Shown here piece by piece: positions 36,547 to 37,176 of a DNA stretch of 64,000 nucleotides. Position numbers and translations under genes: made by a program. Location: the NCBI RefSeq assembly GCF_013167455.1, contig NZ_CP038328.1, one strand, 5' to 3'. The notes beneath the pieces were generated by a model. The model was not told the DNA's origin and did no database searches. It worked only from the letters and a program-made list of their open reading frames with translations. The stretch comes from Escherichia coli O157:H7. GTDB lineage: Bacteria; Pseudomonadota; Gammaproteobacteria; Enterobacterales; Enterobacteriaceae. Within the stretch, counting starts at the first letter, position 1. Each line of letters begins with the position of its first letter.

Positions 36547-36902
36547 TAACTTTAATTTTGTGCAGCACACGATTCCAACGAAAATGATTATGGATCAATT
36601 TCGTTGACCTGTACAAGCAACTTGCAATCTCTGACATAAAAAACGCGAGCCTTTACGAAGAAATCGACATTGATGAAAAGATTAACGTGACCGCTTTTTG
36701 ATAAGTACATTAAAATCGGTTTCGTTATTGGCAATTTTGCTGTGCTTTACACCATGCCACTGAATTCCCCCATTGAAACGAGTGGTGTCGTCAAAGCTCT
36801 GGTGTGGAGTGCAGCACTCGATTCCAATAACTCGCACGTTCAGTTTTGGGGAGATGTAAGGGCTAATCTGAACGGCTGCATTCCTTGTTTAAGGAAAAAC
36901 GA

Positions 36903-36983
36903 ATGACTGATTGCCGATACCTGATTAAACGGGTCATCAAAATCATCATTGCTGTTTTACAGCTGATCCTTCTGTTCTTATAA
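36903..36983 (+). CDS. shoB: Type I toxin ShoB, 26-aa hydrophobic peptide
   Basis: aagga RBS then ATG 36903; translates MTDCRYLIKRVIKIIIAVLQLILLFL, stop TAA 36981..36983. Not in the ORF track. Confidence 0.85.
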   Translation: MTDCRYLIKRVIKIIIAVLQLILLFL

Positions 36984-37176
36984 CACAAGGAAACGTACTT
37001 AAGGTGCGTCCGGTGAACCAATCGGACGCGCCTTTAATAACTATAAATAAGTGTCTGGGCAGATACTATATAAATTAACTTAGTGAATTATTATGCTAAT
37101 GTCATCAATTAAATAAATATAATGGCGTTAAGGCTTCCCAGTAAAATAATTAATACTCTACTTCCAGAGTAGAATA

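What the first reader, a model, noticed from the sequence alone, without database searches (positions are those of the whole stretch)
36549..37176. Type I toxin-antitoxin locus (shoB with antisense RNA partner) hidden in the acpS-yfhL intergenic region
The 26-codon ORF at 36903..36983 (MTDCRYLIKRVIKIIIAVLQLILLFL) with an aagga RBS is the ShoB small hydrophobic toxin. It is invisible to the >=60 aa ORF track. The roughly 350 nt upstream of it (36549..36900) is AT-rich, untranslated, and is where the long structured shoB 5' UTR and the divergently transcribed antitoxin sRNA OhsC would lie; I cannot place the OhsC ends from sequence alone.
Basis: partly seen in the sequence, partly recalled or inferred. 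Interest (0 to 1): 0.45.

Follow-up and report, generated by a model that had tools for sequence, protein, structure and literature searches.

The report
Known shoB-ohsC toxin-antitoxin locus
This is the well-known, already annotated E. coli shoB-ohsC type I toxin-antitoxin pair (a 26-residue membrane toxin held in check by a small RNA); the only fresh detail is that this strain carries the minority version of the RNA-RNA recognition sequence.

Summary
The window is E. coli O157:H7-like. The 26-codon ORF at 36903..36983 is identical to K-12 shoB (b4687) and is annotated as ShoB in RefSeq.

It lies at 36501..36579 on the minus strand (Rfam RF02495, 101 bits, full length), so 48 of its 79 nt fall outside the finding's left edge.

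OhsC is not a true overlapping antisense RNA. It is transcribed divergently, 143 nt from the shoB start. It can pair through its first 19-20 nt with a copy of the same block in the shoB 5' UTR (36809..36828), 76-94 nt upstream of the AUG.

Only about 180 nt (36723..36902) is 5' UTR. The rest of the "350 nt" is the divergent promoter region.

One modest addition: E. coli has two recognition alleles. Compared with K-12, six of 19 positions changed identically in both partners. The window's allele is found in about 31% of 5,426 genomes and always keeps one central U·U mismatch. No mismatched hybrids occurred among 96 loci. A 2024 paper left this pairing question open.

Verdict: already known, low interest.

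The parts
36499..36549 (.). Near-palindromic G+C-rich hairpin (15-bp stem, 13-nt loop) with U/T runs on both strands. It is the OhsC terminator and probably also the acpS terminator.
   Evidence: Inverted repeat I1. OhsC fold. A sub-threshold mirror-image Rfam hit on the + strand. The palindromic nature is also noted in PMC11264685. The consensus terminator scan missed it because its loop limit is 8 nt.
36501..36579 (-). ohsC, the antitoxin small RNA (79 nt by transfer of the K-12 b4608 coordinates; the Rfam match covers 36503..36579).
   Evidence: RF02495 at 101.3 bits, E = 2e-15, model 1-77/77. K-12 ncRNA ohsC 2700520..2700598 mapped through alignment A1.
36560..36579 (-). OhsC nt 1-20 (GUUGGAAUCGUGUGCUGCAC), the segment that recognises shoB mRNA. 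This is the window-type allele.
   Evidence: Direct repeat D1. Pairing strings and energies. 19-nt 5'-end complementarity is described in PMC3919570.
36587..36616 (-). ohsC promoter: -35 TTGTAC (36616..36611) and -10 CATAAT (36592..36587). The start at 36579 is 7 nt downstream.
   Evidence: Promoter scan. The hexamers equal those in Table 2 of PMC11264685 (TTGTAC is the 33% variant).
36687..36716 (+). shoB promoter: -35 GTGACC (36687-92), 18-nt spacer, -10 TAAAAT (36711-16).
   Evidence: Promoter scan. The hexamers equal those in Table 2 of PMC11264685.
36723..37040 (+). Predicted primary shoB transcript (about 318 nt). The start is inferred at 36723 +/- 2 from the -10 box. The published active '+40' form would start near 36762.
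   Evidence: The length agrees with the ~320-nt full-length and ~280-nt processed RNAs reported for K-12 (PMC5668327, PMC7708055). The fold is far more stable than shuffles, z = -7.1. The ends are inferred, not mapped here.
36736..36750 (-). CpxR-box-like sequence GTAAAGCACAGCAAA (1 mismatch to GTAAA-N5-GTAAA) just inside the shoB transcript. It may be one of the two published CpxR sites.
   Evidence: Consensus scan (one search does not cover this). CpxR binding and regulation of shoB-ohsC are reported in PMC9600279. Equating this box with CB1 is my inference.
36809..36828 (+). OhsC target site in the shoB 5' UTR (GUGCAGCACUCGAUUCCAAU), 76-94 nt upstream of the AUG.
   Evidence: Direct repeat D1. 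It is the best site in an unbiased OhsC x mRNA duplex search: -32.9 kcal/mol against -16.2 +/- 2.0 for shuffled OhsC 1-20. It co-varies with the OhsC block.
36881..36896 (+). Predicted anti-SD/SD hairpin: UUCCUU (36881-86), loop GUUU, AAGGAA (36891-96).
   Evidence: MFE and centroid structures. SD unpaired probability is about 0.1-0.2 in the full-length and the 40-nt-truncated RNA, in both alleles.
36903..36983 (+). shoB CDS, a 26-aa hydrophobic toxin MTDCRYLIKRVIKIIIAVLQLILLFL.
   Evidence: DNA identical to K-12 b4687. RefSeq CDS shoB WP_000128776.1 in O157:H7. The same peptide occurs in 51 of 82 metagenomic copies with a readable CDS.
36996..37040 (+). shoB terminator hairpin (GGUGCGUCCG...CGGACGCGCC) followed by a short U run.
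   Evidence: Inverted repeat I2. It is the terminal 14-bp helix in the mRNA fold.

Best explanation
The interval holds the chromosomal shoB-ohsC type I toxin-antitoxin locus of E. coli, here in an O157:H7-type genome.

shoB (36903..36983, +) encodes a 26-residue hydrophobic peptide. In K-12 this peptide depolarises the inner membrane when overproduced. It is transcribed from the GTGACC/TAAAAT promoter as a highly structured RNA of about 318 nt with a 5' UTR of about 180 nt.

In the predicted primary transcript, the 5' end (nt 2-32) folds back onto nt 78-109 and covers the OhsC site. The Shine-Dalgarno sequence is locked in a local UUCCUU/AAGGAA hairpin. According to published K-12 work, only a form shortened by 40 nt at the 5' end is translated.

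OhsC (36501..36579, -) is made divergently from a promoter 143 nt away from the shoB start. It pairs through its first 19-20 nt with 36809..36828, 76-94 nt upstream of the AUG. Because this site is far from the RBS, the most likely mechanism matches IstR-1/tisB and OrzO/zorO: OhsC occupies the upstream region where ribosomes must pre-load (a standby site), and the duplex is cut by RNase III.

Shown here: the identity of both genes, the promoters, the pairing block and its co-variation. Taken from the literature: toxicity, the +40 form and RNase III cleavage. Inferred: the standby mechanism, the transcript ends, and all of the above applying to this strain's allele.
For: Identity:
- 100% DNA match to many O157:H7 genomes in which shoB is annotated.
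- CDS identical to K-12 b4687, with the same gene order acpS-ohsC-shoB-yfhL.
- Rfam ohsC at 101 bits, full length.
- Promoter hexamers found blind equal those published in PMC11264685.

Pairing:
- 18/19 direct repeat.
- Cognate duplex -34.2 kcal/mol; it is the top site in an unbiased search, with shuffled controls at -16.2 +/- 2.0 and the RBS region at only -9.4.
- Compared with K-12, 6 of 7 variable positions changed to the same base in both blocks.
- 0 hybrids in 17 genomic plus 79 metagenomic loci.
- Nearly equal genome counts for the two window-type blocks, 1,696 and 1,694.

Structure:
- mRNA fold z = -7.1.
- The OhsC site is partly buried by the 5' end, and the SD is paired in all forms.

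Literature:
- ShoB toxicity, OhsC rescue, and ~320/~280-nt isoforms of which only the processed one is active (PMC5668327).
- The '+40' form and the standby/pseudoknot hypothesis (PMC7708055).
- RNase III cleavage in the shoB/OhsC duplex in vivo (PMC6212723).
- 19-nt complementarity at the OhsC 5' end (PMC3919570).
Against: - No transcription, toxicity or repression data exist here for this strain; all function is transferred from K-12.
- The primary papers (Fozo 2008, Kawano 2005) could not be read, so the transcript ends are inferred from promoter geometry and reported sizes.
- In my folds, removing 40 nt raises accessibility of the OhsC site only modestly (0.17 to 0.32) and does not free the SD, so activation by processing is not explained by secondary structure alone.
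- The window's allele has a central U·U mismatch, and its effect on repression is unknown.
- Pfam and NCBIfam have no model that matches the peptide, so peptide identity rests on exact sequence identity, not on a profile.
Confidence: 0.9

Rival explanations
1. Leader-ORF coupling, as in hok/mok/sok. ShoB translation would depend on ribosomes translating the upstream 54-codon frame (36742..36906), whose TGA overlaps the shoB ATG (ATGA). OhsC, whose site lies inside that frame, would block the leader rather than a standby site.
For: The frame is open and ends in an ATGA overlap with shoB. It is intact in 90 of 98 loci and stays open across the 7-nt allelic block. [quoted passage not shown]
Against: There is no Shine-Dalgarno-like sequence before the GTG at 36742 or the ATG at 36754. 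Both starts lie within the 40 nt that are removed to make the only translatable form (PMC7708055). Every amino-acid difference seen is a replacement, the three codons over the OhsC block change freely (LDS vs CTL), and 8 copies carry a nonsense codon or frameshift. An open frame of 55 codons in one of three frames is not rare, and the sequence is constrained anyway by RNA structure. The tisA frame is a precedent for an open but untranslated leader (PMC11264685).
Confidence: 0.07
2. In the window-type allele the antitoxin is weakened or largely dispensable. The fixed central U·U mismatch impairs OhsC repression or RNase III cleavage, and ShoB is silenced mainly by the cis-acting structure of its own 5' UTR.
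For: All 37 window-type loci examined carry the mismatch, and the duplex is about 7 kcal/mol weaker than in K-12. For the related zorO-orzO pair, mismatches inside the 18-nt duplex were tested for their effect on repression (PMC3919570). Toxin mRNAs of this class carry a second, cis-encoded layer of repression (PMC5668327). The SD is predicted to be paired regardless of OhsC.
Against: Two 9-bp helices totalling -34 kcal/mol remain far above the shuffled background of -16 and the cross-allele pairs at -20 to -23. Six compensated positions argue that pairing has been under selection in this lineage. The ohsC promoter, terminator and 5' end are intact, and the allele is stable in about 1,700 genomes.
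Confidence: 0.15
3. The ORF is a chance short frame in an AT-rich spacer, and the region only contains the terminators and promoters of the flanking genes.
For: Short ORFs are abundant here: 47 ORFs of at least 20 aa in 2.7 kb. No Pfam or NCBIfam model hits the peptide.
Against: Exact identity to an experimentally characterised gene. The peptide is conserved with few, conservative changes in other Escherichia species and in 82 metagenomic copies with a readable CDS, while nearby non-coding DNA diverges. It pairs with a full-length Rfam antitoxin hit.
Confidence: 0.01

Closest known systems
shoB-ohsC of E. coli K-12 MG1655 (b4687/b4608; originally RyfB/RyfC)
   Same: The same locus at the same chromosomal position (acpS-yfhL spacer). 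The ShoB CDS, RBS, both promoters' -10 boxes, the shoB -35, both terminators and most of the 5' UTR are identical.
   Different: The recognition block differs at 7 of 19 positions on each partner: OhsC GUUGGAAUCGUGUGCUGCAC here, GUUGAGGGUGCAUGCUGCAC in K-12. The window allele has one central U·U mismatch where K-12 is perfect. The 36568-36733 promoter region is about 20% divergent, including the ohsC -35 (TTGTAC vs TTGTAA) that overlaps the published CpxR site CB2 (PMC11264685).
tisB-istR-1 (E. coli)
   Same: A divergent antitoxin with about 20 nt of 5'-end complementarity to a site roughly 100 nt upstream of a sequestered RBS. The primary transcript is inactive and is activated by 5' processing (+42 for tisB, +40 for shoB). 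RNase III cleaves the duplex. There is an open but apparently untranslated leader frame (tisA; here 36742..36906).
   Different: No sequence homology. tisB is under LexA/SOS control, whereas shoB-ohsC is reported to be under CpxR. The standby mechanism and pseudoknot are demonstrated for tisB and only hypothesised for shoB (PMC7708055).
zorO-orzO / zorP-orzP (E. coli O157:H7)
   Same: The same architecture, present in the same kind of genome. An 18-nt block at the sRNA 5' end confers specificity. Closely related sRNAs discriminate between targets through a few nucleotides (PMC3919570). The pairing region is also variable across strains (PMC11264685).
   Different: A different toxin family at a different locus. 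In Zor/Orz the specificity variants are paralogous copies within one genome. Here they are alleles of a single-copy locus in different strains.
hok/sok and ibs/sib (classical cis-antisense type I systems)
   Same: A small hydrophobic membrane toxin repressed by a small RNA.
   Different: In those systems the antitoxin gene overlaps the toxin gene on the opposite strand, with at least 60 nt of complementarity. Here the genes do not overlap, and complementarity is a 19-nt duplicated block.

Membership tests
ShoB-OhsC type I toxin-antitoxin locus | A 26-aa hydrophobic ShoB peptide homologous to K-12 b4687 | tested here: met
   The CDS is 100% identical at the DNA level to K-12 shoB. It is annotated as ShoB WP_000128776.1 in identical O157:H7 genomes.
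ShoB-OhsC type I toxin-antitoxin locus | An OhsC sRNA matching the Rfam ohsC_RNA model (RF02495) above its gathering score | tested here: met
   101.3 bits against a gathering score of 50, model 1-77/77, at 36503..36579 (-). The position coincides with K-12 b4608 transferred by alignment.
ShoB-OhsC type I toxin-antitoxin locus | Divergent, non-overlapping arrangement in the acpS-yfhL spacer | tested here: met
   acpS 36101..36481 (+), ohsC 36501..36579 (-), shoB 36903..36983 (+), yfhL 37177..37437 (-). The order is the same as in K-12.
ShoB-OhsC type I toxin-antitoxin locus | About 19 nt of complementarity between the OhsC 5' end and the shoB 5' UTR | tested here: met
   OhsC nt 1-20 against 36809..36828: 18 Watson-Crick pairs, 1 G·U and one central U·U, at -34.2 kcal/mol. 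K-12 has 19 perfect pairs. The complementarity is imperfect in this allele.
ShoB-OhsC type I toxin-antitoxin locus | Published promoter elements for both genes | tested here: met
   GTGACC/TAAAAT and TTGTAC/CATAAT were found by a blind scan and equal Table 2 of PMC11264685.
ShoB-OhsC type I toxin-antitoxin locus | ShoB is toxic and depolarising on overproduction, and OhsC relieves the toxicity | not testable with these tools
   Reported for K-12 (PMC5668327, citing Fozo 2008). No data for this allele.
ShoB-OhsC type I toxin-antitoxin locus | A ~320-nt primary and a ~280-nt (+40) processed shoB mRNA | not testable with these tools
   The predicted promoter-to-terminator length of 318 nt is consistent. 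The ends were not mapped here.
Standby-site type regulation (tisB/istR-1 class) | The antitoxin binds far upstream of the RBS, not over it | tested here: met
   The site lies 76-94 nt upstream of the AUG. OhsC against the RBS region gives only -9.4 kcal/mol.
Standby-site type regulation (tisB/istR-1 class) | The RBS is sequestered in stable structure in the active mRNA | tested here: inconclusive
   Thermodynamic prediction only. SD unpaired probability is about 0.1-0.2 and AUG about 0.01 in the full-length and 40-nt-truncated forms of both alleles. No probing data.
Standby-site type regulation (tisB/istR-1 class) | A single-stranded standby region plus a 5' pseudoknot is required for 30S loading, and the antitoxin competes with it | not tested
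   A pseudoknot is predicted by others for shoB (PMC7708055). I did not run a pseudoknot predictor. Toeprinting would be needed.
Cis-antisense type I systems (hok/sok, ibs/sib, ldr/rdl) | The antitoxin is transcribed from the strand opposite the toxin gene and overlaps it | tested here: not met
   OhsC (36501..36579) and the predicted shoB transcript (36723..37040) are 143 nt apart. Complementarity comes from a duplicated 19-nt block.
hok/mok-type translational coupling | A translated leader ORF overlaps the toxin start and is the antitoxin's real target | tested here: inconclusive
   An overlapping open frame exists (ATGA) and contains the OhsC site. However, it has no SD, its starts are removed in the +40 form, only replacement changes are seen, and 8 of 98 copies are broken.

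The most novel reading that the evidence does not exclude
E. coli carries two mutually non-cross-reacting 'specificity alleles' of a single-copy toxin-antitoxin pair.

The window's allele (about 31% of genomes, including O157:H7 and several extraintestinal strains) differs from the K-12-type allele by a concerted switch of 6 of 19 duplex positions in both OhsC and its shoB target, plus a fixed central U·U mismatch. The K-12 type is the only one I saw in the two non-coli Escherichia species with a readable locus.

Because the two blocks are direct repeats 249 bp apart, and the target block is an isolated island of divergence inside an otherwise invariant UTR, the switch may have spread from one block to the other by short-tract gene conversion rather than by seven independent compensatory mutations.

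This would answer the question left open in PMC11264685: whether pairing potential is kept across the variable shoB-ohsC region. It would also predict different repression strength in the two lineages.
Probability: 0.4. Interest if true: 0.3.

Novelty: already known. Interest (0 to 1): 0.12.

Why it matters
As a finding it matters little. shoB-ohsC has been known since 2005-2008, is curated in K-12, has its own Rfam family, and is annotated by PGAP in genomes identical to this window. The value of the check is practical.

The one useful by-product concerns the variable pairing region. A 2024 survey flagged it as unresolved. Here it turns out to be two matched alleles, not noise, with strong comparative support for the predicted OhsC-shoB duplex: six double changes and no hybrids in 96 loci. 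That gives a ready-made natural experiment on how many and which base pairs this class of antitoxin needs.

Tried and rejected
- Pfam and NCBIfam scans of the 26-aa peptide gave no hit. The peptide is too short for these libraries, so this is not evidence against identity.
- The consensus terminator scan found none in 36400-37300. Both real hairpins have loops longer than the tool's 8-nt limit, so they were located by inverted-repeat search and folding instead.
- Sub-threshold Rfam hits in the region (Thr/His/Phe leaders, mir-5, plastid psbA and others) all sit on the OhsC terminator hairpin. I rejected them as hairpin-driven noise.
- Fozo et al. 2008 (PMC2597788) and Kawano et al. 2005 (PMC549416) are not held. 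Mapped ends were therefore taken second-hand from reviews and inferred from promoter geometry.
- A CpxR consensus scan (GTAAA-N5-GTAAA, at most 2 mismatches) found one box at 36736-36750 and not the second published site. I could not obtain the published CB1 and CB2 sequences, so the assignment is tentative.
- The upstream 54-codon frame as a real leader peptide was considered and judged unlikely. My first count used a frame offset wrong by one base and was redone.
- Direct RBS occlusion by OhsC was rejected, at -9.4 kcal/mol.
- The species-representative scan with the OhsC terminator core found the locus only in Escherichia: E. coli, E. albertii, E. whittamii and two unnamed species. It also hit one 231-nt contig labelled Terasakiella, which I take to be contamination. 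The E. albertii and E. whittamii contigs end too close to the match to read the locus.

Full report
**What is there**

The window around the finding reads as the acpS-yfhL spacer of E. coli. acpS ends at 36481 (+) and yfhL occupies 37177..37437 (-). A 901-nt query across the spacer matches 5,425 of 5,426 complete E. coli genomes.

The ORF runs 36903..36983 and gives MTDCRYLIKRVIKIIIAVLQLILLFL, with AAGGAA at 36891-36896. Aligned with K-12 MG1655, the CDS, RBS and terminator region are identical to shoB b4687, apart from two terminator substitutions. Pfam and NCBIfam have no model that hits so short a peptide, so identity rests on exact sequence identity to the curated gene.

**Placing OhsC**

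Rfam's ohsC_RNA model (RF02495) matches 36503..36579 on the minus strand at 101.3 bits (gathering score 50), over all 77 model positions. Transferring the K-12 ncRNA b4608 through the alignment gives 36501..36579. So 48 of OhsC's 79 nt, the whole terminator hairpin, lie to the left of the finding's start at 36549.

That hairpin (36499-36549; 15-bp stem, 13-nt loop) is nearly palindromic with U runs on both strands. It sits 18 nt after the acpS stop, so it very probably terminates acpS as well. Its palindromy explains the weaker mirror hit on the + strand and a crowd of sub-threshold 'leader' and 'miRNA' hits. It is also remarked on in PMC11264685.

**Promoters and transcript**

A blind consensus scan gives two sites:

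- GTGACC-18-TAAAAT at 36687-36716 (+)
- TGTACA-17-CATAAT at 36615-36587 (-)

These are exactly the shoB and ohsC promoter hexamers tabulated for more than 2,000 strains in PMC11264685. The window has the 33% TTGTAC variant of the ohsC -35. The OhsC 5' end at 36579 lies 7 nt after its -10.

The shoB start is inferred at 36723 +/- 2. With the terminator (hairpin arms 36996-37012 and 37023-37039) this gives an RNA of about 318 nt. That agrees with the ~320-nt primary transcript reported for K-12. The reported ~280-nt or '+40' active form would begin near 36762 (PMC5668327, PMC7708055).

The 5' UTR is therefore about 180 nt (36723-36902). One CpxR-box-like sequence (one mismatch) lies at 36736-36750. 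CpxR binding and regulation of this locus is published (PMC9600279), but I could not verify which published site this is.

**How the two RNAs meet**

OhsC does not overlap shoB. Instead, a 19-nt block is present twice on the + strand, at 36560-36578 and 36809-36827, with 18/19 identical. The chance expectation is about 6e-5.

Because ohsC is on the other strand, OhsC nt 1-19 are complementary to the second copy, which lies 76-94 nt upstream of the AUG. An unbiased duplex search of the whole sRNA against the whole mRNA always returns this core. OhsC nt 1-20 scores -32.9 kcal/mol, against -16.2 +/- 2.0 for shuffled versions and -9.4 for the RBS region. This matches the published description of 19-nt complementarity at the OhsC 5' end (PMC3919570). 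RNase III cleavage inside this duplex has been seen in vivo in MG1655 (PMC6212723).

**Predicted structure**

The full-length RNA folds far better than shuffles: -115.6 kcal/mol, z = -7.1. In both alleles, nt 2-9 and nt 16-32 pair with nt 102-109 and nt 78-94. The primary transcript's own 5' end thus covers both flanks of the OhsC site. The SD is held in a UUCCUU/AAGGAA hairpin (36881-36896) and the AUG is paired with the coding region.

Removing 40 nt raises the mean unpaired probability of the OhsC site from 0.17 to 0.32 (K-12: 0.33 to 0.43). It leaves the SD paired. That pattern is what one expects of a standby-type mRNA like tisB, rather than of simple RBS unmasking. [quoted passage not shown]

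**Mechanism**

I commit to the following order of events:

1. Transcription produces an inert, tightly folded shoB RNA.
2. 5' trimming yields the +40 form.
3. Ribosomes load upstream of the sequestered RBS.
4. OhsC pairs at 36809-36828, blocks that loading and invites RNase III.
5. ShoB that escapes control inserts into the inner membrane and depolarises it.

Gene identity and the pairing site are shown here. Toxicity, processing and cleavage come from K-12 papers. The standby step is inference by analogy with IstR-1/tisB and OrzO/zorO (PMC4147584, PMC7708055).

**Allelic variation (the only non-textbook result)**

The window and K-12 differ at 52 positions across the 620-nt aligned stretch of the locus. 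These cluster in 36568-36733 plus an isolated island at 36817-36824, inside an otherwise invariant UTR. The island and the start of the cluster are the two copies of the recognition block:

| Block | K-12 | Window |
|---|---|---|
| OhsC side | ...CATGCACCCTCAA | ...CACACGATTCCAA |
| Target side | ...CATGCACCCTCAA | ...CACTCGATTCCAA |

Seven positions changed in each copy, six of them to the same base. The seventh gives a central U·U, so the duplex is 9 bp + U·U + 9 bp plus a terminal G·U.

| Pair | Duplex energy (kcal/mol) |
|---|---|
| Window cognate | -34.2 |
| K-12 cognate | -41.4 |
| Cross-allele | -20 to -23 |

Block-specific searches find the window-type OhsC block in 1,696 genomes and the window-type target block in 1,694 of 5,426 genomes.

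I examined 17 genomic loci spanning the identity range, including two other Escherichia species. I also examined 79 metagenomic loci fetched through an invariant anchor. No hybrid occurred. The metagenomic loci broke down as follows:

- 33 of K-12 type, perfectly paired
- 30 of window type, always with the U·U
- 12 of a K-12-like variant with one G·U
- 4 minor variants

Physical linkage alone would keep the blocks together, so the informative fact is the matching of the changes, not the absence of hybrids. [quoted passage not shown] These data say pairing is retained everywhere, perfect or wobble in the K-12 family and with one fixed mismatch in the window family.

The K-12 type is the one seen in the non-coli Escherichia, so the window type looks derived. 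Because the blocks are direct repeats 249 bp apart, short-tract gene conversion is an attractive route, but it is untested.

**Rivals**

- A hok/mok-like leader. The 54-codon frame 36742..36906 ends in ATGA over the shoB start and contains the OhsC site. It is intact in 90 of 98 loci. But it has no SD, its starts are removed in the +40 form, only replacement substitutions are seen, and eight copies are broken. I rate it about 0.07.
- A weakened antitoxin in this allele because of the U·U. This is possible (about 0.15) and easy to test.
- A chance ORF. This is excluded.

**Comparison, novelty and score**

This is a member of the ShoB-OhsC family by every sequence-level criterion I could test. 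It works like the tisB/istR-1 and zorO/orzO class. It is not a cis-overlapping antisense system.

The locus is curated, has an Rfam family, is annotated in identical genomes and has been surveyed across E. coli, so the finding is 'already known'. Interest is 0.12, most of it for the allele observation.

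Noticed in passing
window 36742..36906 (+): A 54-codon open frame (GTG start, internal ATG at 36754) spans most of the shoB 5' UTR, contains the OhsC target and ends in an ATGA overlap with the shoB start codon. It is intact in 90 of 98 loci, but it has only replacement changes and no SD. It looks like a tisA-type open but non-coding leader.
   Followed up: partly
L013 (NZ_CP080126.1) 1910-3168; L014 (NZ_CP060748.1) 1574-2400; hit H1 (NZ_CP082835.1): Natural disruptions of the locus by insertion sequences. An IS3 lies between the shoB 5' UTR and the shoB CDS in strain PK8568. 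In strain EC96 an IS1-associated deletion leaves only the 3' 73 nt of the ohsC region and no shoB. Strain 1613, otherwise identical to the window, has an IS1 within the spacer.
   Followed up: partly
window 37041..37176: The 27% GC stretch between the shoB terminator and the yfhL stop is much more variable between strains than shoB itself, with several unrelated-looking alleles in the alignment. It also holds a weak minus-strand promoter-like site at 37145..37116. Nothing is annotated here in K-12, and there is no RNA family hit.
   Followed up: no
window 36580..36735: The divergent promoter region is about 20% diverged between the two allele families, while the flanks are 0-2% diverged. The ohsC -35 differs, along with the overlapping region reported as CpxR site CB2, so CpxR control of ohsC may differ between the families.
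   Followed up: partly
window 29261..30092 (-), 32876..33090 (+), 45777..45924 (+), 3074..3212 (+), 6209..11217 (+): Other Rfam matches above gathering score in the window: AsrC (antisense of rseC), the rncO leader, GlmY, RyfD, and a complete rRNA operon (16S, a tRNA at 7836-7908, StyR-44 at 7989-8097, 23S, 5S). All are known features of this chromosomal region.
   Followed up: no
L018 (CACVCF010000286.1, 231 nt): A 231-nt contig in an assembly labelled Terasakiella sp. PR1 carries the exact OhsC terminator core. It is most likely E. coli contamination of that assembly.
   Followed up: no
metagenomic loci: The ShoB variant I22L (…LQLLLLFL) is common, at 22 of 82 copies with a readable CDS, and also occurs in two window-type genomes (L003, L005). 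Rarer variants are C4Y, V11I/A and I14V/I15V. One metagenomic copy has a frameshifted shoB.
   Followed up: no
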